Source: an uncultured Myxococcales bacterium
GTDB lineage: Bacteria > Myxococcota_A > Bradymonadia > UBA4248
Direction: 5' to 3'
Length of the DNA: 25,991 nucleotides
NCBI GenBank assembly: GCA_964454015.1
Contig: CAYVQF010000041.1
Location: forward strand, 1 to 25,991
Positions within the stretch are counted from its first letter, which is position 1; every line of letters starts with the position of its first letter. Positions 8,385 through 11,436 of the stretch are shown one piece after another. A program made the translations under genes and the position numbers. The notes beneath the pieces were generated by a model. It was not told where the DNA came from and did not search any database. It saw only the letters and a list, made by a program, of their open reading frames with translations.

Positions 8385-9527
8385 ATGGACAACGCCCGCA
8401 TCTCTCGTCTCAAGCAAAAAGCCTGGTCCCTCCTCGATAGCGGCAACCACGCCGAAGCCCTCGCCGCCTTCGAAGAGTGCATCAGCCTGGCACCCCACAA
8501 CCTCACCCTCCACCTCGAGAAGGGCGTGGCCCTCTTCAAGCTCCAGCGCAACGAAGAAGCCCTGGTCGTCTTCGACACCATCCTCGCCAAAGAGCCCAAA
8601 CACATCGTCGCCCTCAACAACAAGGCCCGGGTCCTCGTCGAGCTCAACCGCGAGAAAGAAGCCCTCGAGCACTACAAACGCATCCTCGCCATCGACCCCA
8701 ACCACACCCGCACCTGGCTGCGCGCCGCCCAGGTCATGACCAAACTCGAACGCTGGGACAAGGCCGAAGGCTGCTTCGCCGAGGCCCTCGCCTTGAGCGG
8801 CGAAGAAGAAGACATCTGGTACGAACGCGGCCGCATGTTGTGTCAAGCGGGCAAACTCGAAGCGGCCCTCGCCGACTTCGACCGCGCCATCACCCTGAAG
8901 GCCACCTACCTCGAAGCCCACCGCGAACGCGGCAAAGCCCTGATGGCCCTCGGGCGCACCCGCGACGCCATCCTGGCCTACAAGACCGCCCTCAAGAGCA
9001 AGCCCAACGAGCAGGAAGTCGAGCTGCTCTTGGGCGACGCCCTCCTGGCCCTCGGCGAGGCCCAGAGAGCCCTGGACATCTTCGACCCCATCGTCGGCCG
9101 CAACAAAGACTGCGCCGCCGCCTGGGACGGCAAGGGGCGCGCCTTCCTCGCCTTGGGCGAGACCGCCCGCGGCTGGCTCAACTGCGGCACGGCCTGCATG
9201 CTGCAAAACCGCCTCGAAGAGGCCCTGGAGCACCTCGACAAGGCCATCGCCGCCAACCCCGCCTACAGCGAAGCCTGGTCCAACAAAGGCGGCGTCCTGG
9301 TGCGCCTCACCCGCTACGCCGAAGCCGCCCAATGCTACGAAAAGGCCATCGAGTGCCACCCCGACGCCGTGGTGGTCATGCACAACCTCGGCATGCTCCT
9401 CTACGAGCACCTCAACCGCCGCGAAGAAGGCCTGCGCTGGATTAAGTCCACCCTCAAGTACGATCCCCAGCGCTGGTTCAAACTCTCCAGCGAGATGCGC
9501 CAAGCCGTCGACGCCCTGCGGACCTGA
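8385..9527 (+). CDS. Tetratricopeptide-repeat (TPR) protein
   Basis: Repeated 34-aa units with the A..A..Y.KAL..DP pattern throughout. ATG at 8385; the upstream TTG at 8286 is judged less likely. The 3' end overlaps the convergent protease gene by 50 bp. Confidence 0.7.
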   Translation: MDNARISRLKQKAWSLLDSGNHAEALAAFEECISLAPHNLTLHLEKGVALFKLQRNEEALVVFDTILAKEPKHIVALNNKARVLVELNREKEALEHYKRILAIDPNHTRTWLRAAQVMTKLERWDKAEGCFAEALALSGEEEDIWYERGRMLCQAGKLEAALADFDRAITLKATYLEAHRERGKALMALGRTRDAILAYKTALKSKPNEQEVELLLGDALLALGEAQRALDIFDPIVGRNKDCAAAWDGKGRAFLALGETARGWLNCGTACMLQNRLEEALEHLDKAIAANPAYSEAWSNKGGVLVRLTRYAEAAQCYEKAIECHPDAVVVMHNLGMLLYEHLNRREEGLRWIKSTLKYDPQRWFKLSSEMRQAVDALRT

Positions 9528-11436
9528 GCCCCCAGACCAGCAACAGGGCGCACCACCACCAGGCCCCCGAGCCAGGCCCGCCCCGCAGCGACCGCGCCTG
9601 ACAACCCTCGACAGGGCGCGCGCTCAGGGCCAACTCGGAGCGCCAATAGTAGCCAATGCGCTGGCGATTACAGAGGCCGACCTCAGCCCGCGCCGCCAAG
9701 GGGAAAATGGCACACAGCCCCTCGATGTCATCGGCGTGTAGGGTGCGCTTCTTCGTCTCCCCCATGGGCGCCGAGGCATACATGGTCGCGTCGGCCACAT
9801 CGCTGTGGTCCAAACCCAGCACGTGTCCCAGCTCATGCACCATGGTGTTCTGTAGATCCACCGTCGTCAGGGCGCTCGCGTTCATGGAAAAACGGTAGTG
9901 CTCCGTGTTGAACTCCATGTCCACGTCATAGATTTCGCCCGTCTCGCGGTTCATGGTCACGCTGGTCAGACCCAATATCCCCAGGGAGTGCGTCCAACCC
10001 TGATCGCGAAAGACGACCACATTCGCGTTGTCCCGACTGTAAGGGTTGTAGCCCACCCGATCTTCATTGGTCAGCCCCCCGTAAACCAGGGTCATATAGG
10101 AGCAGTCCACGTCGTTCCACGTCCCCAACGAGGCGCGCAACACCCTCTCGATCTCAGACAACCGAAACTGCTCCGAACCCGCCTCATGCAGGTGGACCAC
10201 GACACAGTCCGTGGCCCACCACACGGGCAGCGCGACCTCCCCAGGCGCACACTGCAGACGCATCCCACCGCAGGTCTGGGAGCGCTCCCACGCCACCGCC
10301 GGCCCTACCGACCCACACAGCGCACCCAGCACCACGAGCACCAAGAGCGCCACCCCCCTACCCCGCCGCCAGCCCCAAACCAGCGCCGCCAAGGCCATCC
10401 AAGCCAGGGCCCAGAGGCCGCCGCGCGCCGGGAGGCGAGTGAGGGCACAGCCACAGCCAGCCCCCTCAGCCGCCCCACTCACCAGCTCGGCGCCCGCTTC
10501 GCTCTCCAGGTCCTCGGCCGCAACGCCGCCGGCGAACAACTGGCTTGCGCCATCGGGCCAACGCACCGCCCACAGCCACGTCTCGGCCGCCAACGCCGGC
10601 TGGGCTTGCCCCAATTCGACCCACACCAGAGCCTCTCCCAGAGCAAAGCGCGTCCACTCGCCATCCACGGCAGCGCTCTCCACCGACAGAAGTCCATTCG
10701 CCTGGCTCAAGCGCACCTCCGGTAATGGCCCGCCAGGGCCATAGCGCGCCCGCAGGCCCGCCAAGTCATCTCCTTGGGGGCGGTAGTCCCGCGCCCCCAC
10801 CACCGTGCGTGGAAAGAGAAGGGCCCCCAGCAATTCACCCTCCGTCGCCGGCAGGGCGCTGCAGCTCGGCCACTGGCTGCCGGGATCGCCACAGGGATGC
10901 CCCAAGGCCAGCACGTGCCCCATCTCGTGGGCCACCACCGCGGCAGCGTCCAGGGAGCCCGGCGCCGCGCCCCCGGCAGAGAAGAGAAAGCCACCCCGGT
11001 TGAGGTAGATGTCGGCGTCCAAGAGGCGCCCCGTCGCCGCGACGTAGGTGTGCACCGTGATGGCCGCCACCAGATCCGACGGGCCAAAGTCTGCCGGCCA
11101 ATCGCCCGGCTCCCACGCCGAGACCAGCCCCGTGACCCCGTCGCCAGCGTCGAGTCGCGGCGTACAGGGCGCCTGCCAGGTCATGGTGCGCGCCAAAGCG
11201 CCATCGCTCCACCAGGTCGAAGCCCCCAGCCACATCGCCACGGACAGCGCCCCCTCATCGGCAGGCAAGCACAAGGCAAAGATGTGTTCCTCAGGCCAAG
11301 TCAACACTTGCCCCTGAGCATCGCGCATGGGCTCCCAGGCGCTCGCCTTGGGCGACCCGACGGCCATGAGCACGACCAGGATCGCGCCGCAGCGCGACGC
11401 CCAACGCCTCCAGGTGAGCCCGGCCCCTCTTCTCAC
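9478..11436 (-). CDS. Secreted tandem matrixin-like (M10 metzincin) zinc metalloprotease; two catalytic domains, each followed by a MYXO-CTERM-like tail
   Basis: N-terminal signal peptide. HEMGHVLALGH at aa 170-180. GCGC plus hydrophobic segment plus RRGRG at about aa 327-361. A second signal-peptide-like segment VALLVLVVLGALCGSVGPAVA. A second domain with HELGHVLGLDHSD and the ATMY Met-turn at aa 534-553. A final GC...AWWWCALLLVWGL...RRR tail. GTG start at 11436 forms a GTGA overlap with the upstream gene stop. Confidence 0.65.
   Translation of the reverse strand: MRRGAGLTWRRWASRCGAILVVLMAVGSPKASAWEPMRDAQGQVLTWPEEHIFALCLPADEGALSVAMWLGASTWWSDGALARTMTWQAPCTPRLDAGDGVTGLVSAWEPGDWPADFGPSDLVAAITVHTYVAATGRLLDADIYLNRGGFLFSAGGAAPGSLDAAAVVAHEMGHVLALGHPCGDPGSQWPSCSALPATEGELLGALLFPRTVVGARDYRPQGDDLAGLRARYGPGGPLPEVRLSQANGLLSVESAAVDGEWTRFALGEALVWVELGQAQPALAAETWLWAVRWPDGASQLFAGGVAAEDLESEAGAELVSGAAEGAGCGCALTRLPARGGLWALAWMALAALVWGWRRGRGVALLVLVVLGALCGSVGPAVAWERSQTCGGMRLQCAPGEVALPVWWATDCVVVHLHEAGSEQFRLSEIERVLRASLGTWNDVDCSYMTLVYGGLTNEDRVGYNPYSRDNANVVVFRDQGWTHSLGILGLTSVTMNRETGEIYDVDMEFNTEHYRFSMNASALTTVDLQNTMVHELGHVLGLDHSDVADATMYASAPMGETKKRTLHADDIEGLCAIFPLAARAEVGLCNRQRIGYYWRSELALSARPVEGCQARSLRGGPGSGAWWWCALLLVWGLRSAGRRRLGASRWRV

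What the first reader, a model, noticed from the sequence alone, without database searches (positions are those of the whole stretch)
9478..11436. Two matrixin protease modules in one ORF, joined by an internal MYXO-CTERM-like tail fused to a signal-peptide-like segment
A single stop-free 652-aa frame contains, in order: a signal peptide; a zinc metalloprotease domain with HEMGHVLALGH; a C-terminal-sorting-type tail (GCGC, then hydrophobic LWALAWMALAALVWGW, then RRGRG); directly afterwards a classic signal-peptide h-region with an AxA site (VALLVLVVLGALCGSVGPAVA-W); a second matrixin domain (HELGHVLGLDHSD...ATMY Met-turn); and a second Cys plus hydrophobic plus RRR tail. A sorting signal that is normally strictly C-terminal sits in the middle of the reading frame, at about 10330..10470. 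Three explanations are possible. First, two tandem paralogs whose intervening stop was lost, which predicts a read-through fusion. Second, an internal translation start for the second module (Met at 10398). Third, a polyprotein split post-translationally by the MYXO-CTERM processing machinery, which would be a new kind of processing. The gene is translationally coupled (GTGA) to an upstream secreted 21-kDa protein that could act as a pro-peptide or inhibitor-like partner.
Basis: partly seen in the sequence, partly recalled or inferred. Interest (0 to 1): 0.65.

Follow-up and report, generated by a model that had tools for sequence, protein, structure and literature searches.

The report
Two surface proteases fused into one gene
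Two neighbouring secreted zinc-protease genes of a myxobacterium-like organism are joined into one reading frame through a membrane hairpin made of the first protein's surface-sorting tail and the second protein's export signal; the same join recurs in many related bacteria, so it is probably a real two-in-one precursor that the cell cuts apart.

Summary
Window 9478..11436 (minus strand) is one 652-aa ORF. In order it holds a signal peptide, metzincin module 1, a Cys/TM/Arg tail, a signal-peptide-like segment ending AVA|W, matrixin module 2, and a second Cys/TM/Arg tail. It is not an assembly artefact: three other independent assemblies carry the same junction.

It is also not a one-off. 35 of the 150 closest 50%-identity cluster representatives, and 6 of 79 species-level genome loci, are fused two-module ORFs. 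All but one have the same hairpin. Some all-fused clades are deep.

Unfused relatives are tandem genes, usually with ATGA overlap, so a 1-nt change fuses them. The closest relative found (L006) is unfused. 31 of 39 internal tails match the MYXO-CTERM model. The window's own tail scores 15.2 bits against a cut-off of 20.

Best reading (inferred): one precursor threads the membrane four times. Signal peptidase and myxosortase then resolve it into two lipid-anchored proteases. An internal start is not excluded here (GTG 10353, TTG 10344, GTG 10341).

Internal MYXO-CTERM has been noted before, for MXAN_5598, so this is a new variant of a known kind.

The coupled upstream gene is a conserved partner. 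Its predicted fold is NTR/TIMP-like, which hints at an inhibitor.

The parts
9478..11436 (-). Single 652-aa ORF encoding the fused two-protease precursor (stop codon at 9478..9480)
   Evidence: ORF. (family matches). (third-position GC 0.75-0.90 throughout). (same sequence in three other assemblies).
11338..11436 (-). N-terminal signal peptide, aa 1-33 (MRRGAGLTWRRWASRCGAILVVLMAVGSPKASA|WEP). The GTG start overlaps the partner's stop as GTGA.
   Evidence: Read from the sequence. The mature N-terminus AWEPMR aligns with L006 and other N-type modules. AF2 predicts a helix at aa 8-26. The public 629-aa gene call starts at Met24 and would lack a signal peptide.
10459..11337 (-). Module 1, aa 34-326. 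It is a divergent metzincin catalytic domain (HEMGHVLALGH at 10897..10929; Leu in place of the Met-turn Met, 'ALLFP') followed by a stretch of roughly 90 aa (about aa 236-326) that is only partly folded in the model.
   Evidence: NF041905 34.6 bits, E 1e-8. Alignment with L006, L039, L013 and L066 N-type modules. AF2 pLDDT is mostly 65-91 in the catalytic part, with strands at aa 241-266 and pLDDT below 50 for aa 268-339.
10354..10458 (-). Internal MYXO-CTERM-like tail, aa 327-361: GCGC motif (Cys328 invariant), spacer, hydrophobic helix aa 341-356 (10369..10416), and Arg cluster RRGRG (10354..10368).
   Evidence: TIGR03901.2 15.2 bits, E 0.02, covering model positions 1-34 of 34, cut-off 20. 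C328 is invariant across 28 fused homologues. 31 of 39 internal tails of fused homologues match TIGR03901, best E 7e-8.
10291..10353 (-). Internal signal-peptide-like segment, aa 362-382 (VALLVLVVLGALCGSVGPAVA|WERSQTC). Together with the previous helix it forms a positive-inside hairpin. Possible internal starts: GTG 10353, TTG 10344, GTG 10341.
   Evidence: hairpin conserved in all but one fused homologue. (single-module relatives have their N-terminal AxA|[WFY]ERTxTC at the same place). (helices at aa 340-358 and 360-375). (SD/start scores).
9604..10290 (-). Module 2, aa 383-611: matrixin-like catalytic domain with HELGHVLGLDH (9805..9837) and Met-turn ATMYA (Met552).
   Evidence: Pfam Peptidase_M10 best stretch aa 504-577. 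NF041905 141.7 bits. PDB sequence matches to MMP-8 and karilysin across the zinc site and Met-turn. AF2 pLDDT 87-98.
9481..9603 (-). C-terminal sorting-type tail, aa 612-652: Cys612, spacer, hydrophobic AWWWCALLLVWGL, then RRR.
   Evidence: Aligns with the invariant Cys / TM / RRRR tail of the single-module family (C251) and with C612. It has no TIGR03901 hit of its own. AF2 predicts a helix at aa 625-647.
11433..12074 (-). Upstream, translationally coupled 213-aa secreted partner with a predicted NTR/TIMP-like OB fold.

Best explanation
The ORF is a genuine in-frame fusion of a conserved tandem pair of MYXO-CTERM-type surface metalloproteases. These are relatives of the MXAN_2677/MXAN_2678 family, and module 2 is matrixin-like.

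The join is a transmembrane hairpin. The first helix is the sorting tail of protease 1 (running out to in). The Arg cluster is a short cytoplasmic loop. The second helix is the signal peptide of protease 2 (running in to out), and it ends in an AxA cleavage site.

Inferred mechanism: the precursor is made as one chain and inserted through Sec with four hydrophobic segments, so both catalytic modules end up in the periplasm. Signal peptidase I cuts after Ala33 and after Ala382. The tail cysteines (Cys328 and Cys612) are lipidated, and myxosortase cuts next to them. Two separate lipid-anchored proteases go to the cell surface, and a roughly 50-residue hairpin is discarded.

Because both ends of the junction are removed anyway, fusing or splitting the two genes makes little functional difference. 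That would explain why the fusion has arisen repeatedly and persists.

The coupled upstream NTR/TIMP-like protein is probably a dedicated inhibitor or chaperone of these pro-domain-less proteases.

Shown: the anatomy, reproducibility, frequency, conservation, and the evolutionary relation to unfused pairs. Inferred: the topology, both proteolytic steps, and the partner's role.
For: The junction is real. It is identical in L003 and L004, and present in a strain variant, L005.

The architecture is common. 35 of the 150 best 50%-cluster representatives are 447-645-aa proteins with two matched stretches. They read SP - HExxH - Cys/TM/RRR - TM/AxA - HExxH - Cys/TM/RRR. Where the parser worked, the loops are 3-30 aa with net charge +2 to +7 and the last Cys lies a median of 8 residues before helix 1.

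The internal Cys and both zinc sites are invariant in 28 fused homologues. 31 of 39 internal tails match TIGR03901, compared with 22 of 39 terminal tails.

The residues after the internal AxA are the same mature N-termini seen in single-module relatives.

The fused state is stable. There are all-fused clades of 12 N-modules and 10 C-modules from the same proteins, and another of 6. The state has also changed repeatedly: the window is fused while L006 is tandem, and L040 is fused while L020 is tandem. A Fitch count gives a minimum of 26 changes on the module tree.

Unfused pairs are ATGA-coupled.

Fused L047 has no ATG, GTG or TTG in the junction, and L001, L040, L063 and L066 have only weak SD/start candidates. 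Their second modules are nevertheless intact.

L001 (P0002, 40% identity) is fused and has the same partner gene upstream, again overlapping by 4 nt.

[quoted passage not shown] MrtX cleaves next to the lipidated Cys.
Against: There are no protein-level data. Cleavage at either internal site is inferred from motifs only.

The window's own internal tail scores below the TIGR03901 cut-off (15.2 against 20), and its C-terminal tail does not score at all.

No myxosortase gene is in the 26-kb window, so its presence in this organism is unverified.

In the window itself, a G-rich SD-like run precedes TTG 10344 and GTG 10341 (-13.4 kcal/mol), and GTG 10353 scores -6.5. Separate initiation of module 2 is therefore possible.

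One extra G in the run 10361..10364 would recreate TAG followed by GTG, so the fusion is one mutation away from the unfused state and may be young in this lineage. The nearest relative, L006, is unfused.

One fused homologue (P0096) has only one hydrophobic segment at the junction, which would break the proposed topology.
Confidence: 0.55

Rival explanations
1. Two proteins arise from two starts. Ribosomes also initiate internally (GTG 10353, TTG 10344 or GTG 10341), so module 2 is made mainly as a separate pre-protein with its own signal peptide. The full-length chain would be a by-product.
For: In-frame start codons exist. A G-run gives an SD-like duplex of -13.4 kcal/mol upstream of 10344/10341, and GTG 10353 scores -6.5. 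Fused L062 and L067 retain an ATG with a good SD. In L067, though, that ATG lies inside the first helix. In unfused relatives the second gene is translationally coupled with an SD built from the Arg codons.
Against: Starts at 10344 or 10341 would give a signal peptide with no charged n-region. There is no stop codon to release ribosomes for re-initiation. L047 has no canonical start in its junction, and L001, L040, L063 and L066 have only weak ones, yet their second modules are conserved. GTG, TTG and ATG codons are expected by chance in Leu/Val-rich helices.
Confidence: 0.2
2. The fused protein is not cleaved at the junction. It works as a double-headed enzyme held in the inner membrane by the hairpin, with only the last tail, or none, being sorted.
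For: The window's internal tail is below the curated MYXO-CTERM cut-off, and the terminal tail does not score. The topology prediction alone does not require cleavage.
Against: AxA-type sites and the invariant tail Cys are kept in nearly all of the 39 fused homologues. The internal tails match TIGR03901 at least as often as the terminal ones do. Neither feature would be needed for a plain membrane anchor.
Confidence: 0.12
3. This is a recent, neutral or mildly harmful stop-loss in this lineage only, meaning ordinary tandem duplicates on the way to decay.
For: The closest relative, L006, is unfused. One nucleotide separates the two states. Module 1 has Leu instead of the Met-turn Met, and Ala in place of the Gly of HExxHxxGxxH.
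Against: Both modules keep all zinc ligands and the catalytic Glu. Third-position GC is high throughout. The same state is fixed in a strain variant. It has been kept through deep divergence in other clades.
Confidence: 0.1
4. An assembly or sequencing error in the G-runs at 10353..10364 hides a stop codon, so there are really two genes.
For: A single added G in the run 10361..10364 gives ...WRRG-TAG followed 5 nt later by GTG, which resembles unfused junctions such as L028, L052 and L077.
Against: The junction is identical in three other independent assemblies, one of them a variant with two SNPs elsewhere. The architecture is widespread in unrelated assemblies.
Confidence: 0.03

Closest known systems
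NCBIfam NF041905, 'myxosortase-dependent metalloprotease, MXAN_2677/MXAN_2678 family' (going by their locus numbers, adjacent genes in Myxococcus xanthus)
   Same: It is the best-scoring curated family for both modules. It shares the signal peptide, the HExxHxxGxxH/Met-turn domain without a pro-domain, and the Cys/TM/Arg tail. Relatives occur as tandem pairs.
   Different: Scores are below the 250-bit equivalog cut-off (141.7 for module 2 and 34.6 for module 1). Here the two genes form one ORF. Module 1 belongs to a separate, longer subfamily (AWEPMR..., HExxHxxxLGHxCGDP).
MXAN_5598, an M. xanthus protein with an internal MYXO-CTERM (PMC11980579)
   Same: A MYXO-CTERM motif sits in the middle of an ORF. 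The authors attribute it to a fusion of two genes and propose that it is still processed.
   Different: MXAN_5598 joins an adhesin to an OM beta-barrel/OmpA part and is described as atypical. Here two paralogous proteases are joined, the tail is followed directly by a cleavable signal peptide, and the fusion is a recurrent, clade-wide state.
Haloferax volcanii ArtA substrate with a tripartite sorting signal that is not C-terminal (J Bacteriol 199:e00802-16; known here only from the reference list of PMC11980579)
   Same: [quoted passage not shown]
   Different: It involves a different sorting enzyme (archaeosortase), a different signal (PGF-type) and a different domain of life. I could not read the paper itself.
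Polyproteins resolved by signal peptidase at internal signal sequences. Examples from my own knowledge, not retrieved here (one search found nothing): the Bradyrhizobium japonicum FbcH cytochrome b/c1 precursor, and flavivirus or bunyavirus glycoprotein precursors.
   Same: The logic is 'stop-transfer helix followed by signal helix': one chain threads the membrane repeatedly and signal peptidase separates the exported parts.
   Different: Those cases have no C-terminal lipid-sorting step. Here a second protease (myxosortase) is proposed to free the upstream module.
Potempin/KLIKK-peptidase operons of Tannerella forsythia (PotA-karilysin; PMC9890683)
   Same: A small secreted protein is encoded immediately upstream of, and co-transcribed with, a bacterial MMP-like protease. 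PotA has an OB fold and inhibits karilysin. The partner here is also predicted to have an OB-type (NTR/TIMP-like) fold.
   Different: No sequence similarity was found. Potempins are 98-132-residue lipoproteins. The partner here is about 175 residues when mature, is not an obvious lipoprotein, and its inhibitory activity is untested.

Membership tests
Matrixin / Peptidase_M10 (Pfam PF00413) | Score at or above the Pfam gathering threshold | tested here: met
   62.1 bits against 24; best stretch aa 504-577, in module 2.
Matrixin / Peptidase_M10 (Pfam PF00413) | Zinc motif HExxHxxGxxH plus Met-turn | tested here: met
   Module 2 has HELGHVLGLDH and ATMYA, aligned to MMP-8 and karilysin. Module 1 deviates: HEMGHVLALGH has Ala in place of the Gly, and 'ALLFP' has Leu in place of the Met.
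Matrixin / Peptidase_M10 (Pfam PF00413) | N-terminal pro-domain with the cysteine switch (PRCGxPD) | tested here: not met
   The predicted mature N-termini (WEPMR..., WERSQTC...) follow the signal peptides directly, and no PRCG motif is in the sequence. This is typical of the bacterial family aligned.
NCBIfam NF041905 (MXAN_2677/MXAN_2678 equivalog) | Score at or above the curated cut-off of 250 bits | tested here: not met
   170.1 bits for the whole ORF, 141.7 for module 2 and 34.6 for module 1. It is the best-matching family, but this is a relative rather than an equivalog.
MYXO-CTERM sorting signal (TIGR03901) | Tripartite tail: short motif with invariant Cys, hydrophobic helix, Arg-rich end | tested here: met
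   Internal tail: GCGC / LWALAWMALAALVWGW / RRGRG. Terminal tail: C612 / AWWWCALLLVWGL / RRR. Both cysteines are invariant across homologues.
MYXO-CTERM sorting signal (TIGR03901) | HMM score at or above the curated cut-off of 20 bits | tested here: not met
   The internal tail scores 15.2 bits, E 0.02, over the full model length. The terminal tail has no hit. As a class, 31 of 39 internal and 22 of 39 terminal tails of fused homologues match at E<=1, with best values 7e-8 and 3.8e-6.
MYXO-CTERM sorting signal (TIGR03901) | Position at the extreme C-terminus of the protein | tested here: not met
   The first tail ends at aa 361 of 652. The literature already allows rare internal cases.
MYXO-CTERM sorting signal (TIGR03901) | Myxosortase (MrtX) and a type II secretion system encoded in the same genome | not testable with these tools
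   Only 26 kb of the genome is available, and the gene table of the matching contig shows no CPBP-family gene. The related loci all come from Myxococcota or Bradymonadia MAGs.
MYXO-CTERM sorting signal (TIGR03901) | Actual lipidation and cleavage at the Cys | not testable with these tools
   Needs proteomics or the MrtX co-expression assay of PMC11980579.
TIMP / NTR module (for the upstream partner) | OB-type NTR fold | tested here: inconclusive
   [not shown]
TIMP / NTR module (for the upstream partner) | Sequence match to Pfam TIMP, NTR or NtA | tested here: not met
   The window protein has no Pfam hit. Only 3 of 53 homologues weakly hit NtA (best E 5.8e-4). A profile search against PDB sequences found nothing.
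TIMP / NTR module (for the upstream partner) | N-terminal Cys1 that chelates the catalytic zinc, with conserved disulfides | tested here: not met
   The predicted mature N-terminus is SLVAEL.... No Cys is conserved in the 53-member alignment, where the only invariant residues are T76, G101 and G102.

The most novel reading that the evidence does not exclude
These fused genes are true bacterial polyproteins. One chain is woven four times through the inner membrane and is then resolved by two different proteases: signal peptidase I at the internal signal peptide, and myxosortase at the internal, lipidated MYXO-CTERM. The products are two surface-anchored matrixin-like proteases in fixed 1:1 ratio. 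They are kept in check by a co-translated NTR/TIMP-like partner, which would make this a bacterial MMP/TIMP-type system with a self-resolving precursor.
Probability: 0.3. Interest if true: 0.7.

Novelty: new variant of a known kind. Interest (0 to 1): 0.55.

Why it matters
If the precursor reading is right, this family provides dozens of natural substrates in which a MYXO-CTERM signal works from the middle of a chain. The myxosortase field has so far discussed that only for one atypical protein. It gives a direct, simple test: is the tag position-independent, and is lipidation followed by MrtX cleavage enough to release an upstream domain?

It also shows how gene fusion and fission can be nearly neutral when both ends of a junction are removed after export. 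That matters for annotation. Gene callers and family models will report these ORFs as one odd 600-aa protein, and the public call for this one drops the signal peptide.

Separately, a conserved NTR/TIMP-like protein coupled to pro-domain-less matrixin-like proteases would be a candidate bacterial counterpart of the animal MMP/TIMP pair.

Tried and rejected
- TIGR03901 on the window's C-terminal tail alone gave no hit, even at E<=10. I relied instead on its alignment to the family's invariant Cys.
- The word-indexed homologue search found only 4 relatives. The exhaustive representative search was needed to see the fused class.
- The automatic hairpin parser mis-assigned six proteins: L040, L062, L063, P0033, P0077 and P0139. 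It picked an earlier hydrophobic stretch. Their hairpins are visible.
- I first took 'no start codon in the junction' to be a general argument against internal initiation. On checking, only L047 lacks any canonical start; the others have some, mostly inside the first helix. The argument is therefore weaker than it first looked.
- Literature: no paper in the library mentions MXAN_2677 or MXAN_2678. The FbcH precedent could not be retrieved. The ArtA paper is not held. A search for bacterial polyproteins with an internal signal peptide returned only a virology review.
- The afdb50 fold library was unavailable.
- A profile of 53 partner homologues found nothing among PDB sequences.
- Cluster look-up gave no names or accessions for P0001, P0002 or P0005.
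- I considered the Met at 10398 as a start and rejected it. It lies inside the tail helix and has no SD match.
- I did not use the metagenome scan, because no relative above about 55% identity exists in the protein collections searched.

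
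Full report
**1. What is in the sequence**

Window 9478..11436 on the minus strand is one ORF of 652 aa. It starts at a GTG that overlaps the TGA of the upstream 213-aa ORF (11433..12074) as GTGA.
- a signal peptide ending KASA|W (aa 1-33)
- HEMGHVLALGH (aa 170-180)
- GCGC (aa 327-330)
- a hydrophobic stretch LWALAWMALAALVWGW (aa 341-356)
- RRGRG (aa 357-361)
- a second hydrophobic stretch ending AVA|W (aa 362-382)
- HELGHVLGLDH with the Met-turn ATMYA (aa 534-553)
- a final Cys/hydrophobic/RRR tail (aa 612-652).

Third-position GC is 0.75-0.90 in this frame along the whole ORF, junction included.

The public gene call for the identical protein (P0001, 629 aa) starts at Met24 and would have no signal peptide. 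The GTG start gives a mature N-terminus AWEPMR that aligns with relatives.

**2. Family assignment**

- Pfam Peptidase_M10 is matched at 62.1 bits (cut-off 24), mainly by module 2.
- The best NCBIfam model is NF041905, 'myxosortase-dependent metalloprotease, MXAN_2677/MXAN_2678 family'. It scores 170.1 bits for the whole ORF, 141.7 for module 2 and 34.6 for module 1, all below the 250-bit equivalog cut-off.
- Module 2 aligns with MMP-8 and karilysin across the zinc site and Met-turn.
- Module 1 belongs to a longer, separate subfamily (HExxHxxxLGHxCGDP). In the window it has Leu where relatives have the Met-turn Met.
- The internal tail matches the whole length of TIGR03901 (MYXO-CTERM) at 15.2 bits, E 0.02, under the 20-bit cut-off. 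The terminal tail does not score, but it aligns with the family's invariant Cys/TM/RRRR tail.

**3. Not an artefact**

The same protein is encoded on contigs from three other independent assemblies. L003 and L004 are identical to the window over 21.4 kb and 6.9 kb. L005 differs by two synonymous SNPs at window positions 11224 and 11143, so it is a different strain with the same junction.

One caveat remains. One extra G in the run 10361..10364 would create TAG followed 5 nt later by GTG 10353. The fused and unfused states are therefore one mutation apart.

**4. The architecture is common**

An exhaustive search with module 2 found 9051 relatives at E<=0.001. Among the best 150 cluster representatives (clusters at 50% identity), 35 are 447-645-aa proteins with two matched stretches.

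Their layout is uniform: signal peptide, HExxH, a tail with a Cys (GC, GCGC, GCS...), hydrophobic helix, Arg cluster, second hydrophobic helix ending in an AxA-type site, HExxH, second tail. The residue after the site is usually aromatic.

Where my parser worked, loops are 3-30 residues with net charge +2 to +7, and the last Cys lies a median of 8 residues before the first helix. Only P0096 has a single hydrophobic segment at the junction.

In an alignment of 28 fused proteins, the internal Cys (C328), the terminal Cys (C612) and both zinc sites are invariant.

31 of 39 internal tails match TIGR03901 at E<=1 (best 7e-8), compared with 22 of 39 terminal tails. The residues after the internal cleavage site ([WFY]ERTxTC and variants) are the same as the mature N-termini of single-module relatives.

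**5. Relation to unfused genes**

In 79 species-representative genome loci, all from Myxococcota or Bradymonadia MAGs, I found 60 single-module arrangements, 15 tandem arrangements (14 of them adjacent) and 6 fused.

In the tandem pairs, the second gene usually starts at an ATG that overlaps the first gene's TGA (ATGA). This holds for L013, L020, L039, L049 and L053, and probably L006. Otherwise it follows a TAG by 3-8 nt (L028, L052, L077). L077 and L082 are in the same frame, separated by a single stop. A one-base change is therefore enough to fuse them.

The window's closest relative, L006 (53% identity in module 2), is unfused, and both of its modules are the nearest neighbours of the window's modules. 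Likewise, fused L040 pairs with unfused L020.

On a rough neighbour-joining tree, N-modules group with N-modules and C-modules with C-modules. There is an all-fused clade of 12 N-modules mirrored by 10 C-modules from the same proteins, and another all-fused clade of 6. The parsimony minimum is 26 state changes over the module tree, where each gene contributes two leaves.

So fusion or fission has happened repeatedly, and the fused state can persist through divergence to below 50% identity.

P0002 (L001, 40% identity, 600 aa) is a fused relative with the same upstream partner, overlapping by 4 nt, and with a phosphoglucomutase gene nearby, as in the window's contig.

**6. One chain or two starts?**

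In unfused pairs, the second gene has an ATG and a Shine-Dalgarno match with a median of -9 kcal/mol. That match is often built from the Arg codons of the first gene's tail, for example AGGAGGCGG in L039.

Among the eight fused loci for which I have DNA:
- L047 has no ATG, GTG or TTG anywhere in the junction.
- L001, L040, L063 and L066 have only weak candidates (-6.3 or weaker).
- L062 and L067 retain an ATG with a good match. In L067 that ATG lies inside the first helix.
- The window has GTG 10353 (-6.5), and TTG 10344 and GTG 10341 behind a G-run (-13.4). The latter two would give a signal peptide with no charged n-region.

Because the second modules of the start-less fusions are fully conserved, they must be made as part of the long chain. 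For the window itself, internal initiation cannot be excluded.

**7. Mechanism (inferred)**

The four hydrophobic segments alternate in the right way: signal peptide (in to out), tail helix (out to in), Arg loop inside, signal-like helix (in to out), tail helix (out to in). Both modules would therefore be periplasmic.

AlphaFold2, using 28 fused homologues, predicts helices at aa 8-26, 340-358, 360-375 and 625-647. It gives a confident matrixin-like module 2 (pLDDT 87-98) and a moderately confident module 1.

The published model for MYXO-CTERM has four steps: Sec export, anchoring by the tail helix, lipidation of the invariant Cys, and cleavage by myxosortase MrtX followed by T2SS transport (PMC11980579). 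The same paper notes rare internal MYXO-CTERM motifs. [quoted passage not shown]

Applied here, signal peptidase I would cut after Ala33 and Ala382, and MrtX would cut at Cys328 and Cys612. That releases two lipoproteins and a discarded hairpin. Since both sides of the junction are removed in either case, the fused and split states would be nearly equivalent. This explains the repeated switching.

**8. The upstream partner**

Homologues of the 213-aa secreted protein lie directly upstream, on the same strand, in 51 of 74 assessable loci, whether the protease is single, tandem or fused. The protein has no Pfam or NCBIfam match.

An AlphaFold2 model from a 3-sequence alignment has a confident core (pLDDT about 84-96 for residues ~41-160). 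Only one of the five models was confident.

There is no conserved N-terminal Cys, so a TIMP-like zinc-chelating mechanism is not supported.

A functional precedent exists. The OB-fold potempin PotA is encoded immediately upstream of karilysin, is co-transcribed with it, and inhibits it (PMC9890683). I therefore regard an inhibitor or chaperone role as likely but untested.

**9. Verdict**

It is one instance of a widespread but, as far as the searchable literature shows, undescribed arrangement: tandem MYXO-CTERM metalloproteases fused through a sorting-tail/signal-peptide hairpin.

The idea of an internal sorting signal is not new, so I rate it a new variant of a known kind. The processing steps remain to be shown.

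Noticed in passing
[not shown]
   Followed up: partly
window 12170..15094 (+): A long ORF (974 aa; public aa) is divergently oriented next to the operon. It carries Pfam MVP_shoulder and a weak Vault_3 hit in the precomputed gene table, so it is a major-vault-protein-like gene in a bacterium.
   Followed up: no
window 15415..18591 (-): A gene of about 1025 aa combines a Ser/Thr protein kinase, Peripla_BP_6 and FGE-sulfatase domains, according to the gene table of the identical contig.
   Followed up: no
window 9478..9527: The 3' end of the protease ORF overlaps, convergently and by about 50 nt, the end of the plus-strand ORF 8286..9527. The public call for that gene is 380 aa, with no Pfam hit, and the sequence looks TPR-like.
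   Followed up: no
L039:3957-3990, L020:3659-3692, L013:3927-3960, L077:1133-1172: In unfused tandem pairs, the Arg codons of the first gene's RRR tail (AGG AGG CGG, CGG AGG ...) double as the Shine-Dalgarno sequence for the ATGA-coupled second gene. The sorting tail and the downstream ribosome-binding site share the same nucleotides.
   Followed up: partly
P0096 (645 aa), junction around aa 330-370: This is the only fused homologue with a single hydrophobic segment between the modules (GCTC...LGALALFVVAALLFVPGRAEA|YKCSR). That would place module 2 on the wrong side of the membrane unless the segment acts differently. It may reflect a deletion or a pseudogene.
   Followed up: no
L078:3485-5299 and L052:1809-4022: Partner-like segments lie inside larger ORFs. 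In L078 one follows a protease module within the same 605-aa stop-to-stop ORF. In L052 it is the C-terminal part of a 738-aa stop-to-stop ORF upstream of the proteases. These may be further fusions within this operon.
   Followed up: no
window 10780..10800 (module 1, about aa 213-219): Module 1 has Leu where its relatives have the Met-turn methionine (ALLFP, against ALMFP in L006 and AVMAP in others), and Ala in place of the Gly of HExxHxxGxxH. Its activity may be reduced or altered.
   Followed up: no
window 11368..11436: The public gene call for this protein (629 aa, P0001) starts at Met24 and omits the signal peptide. The GTG at 11436, coupled to the upstream stop, restores a canonical signal peptide.
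   Followed up: yes
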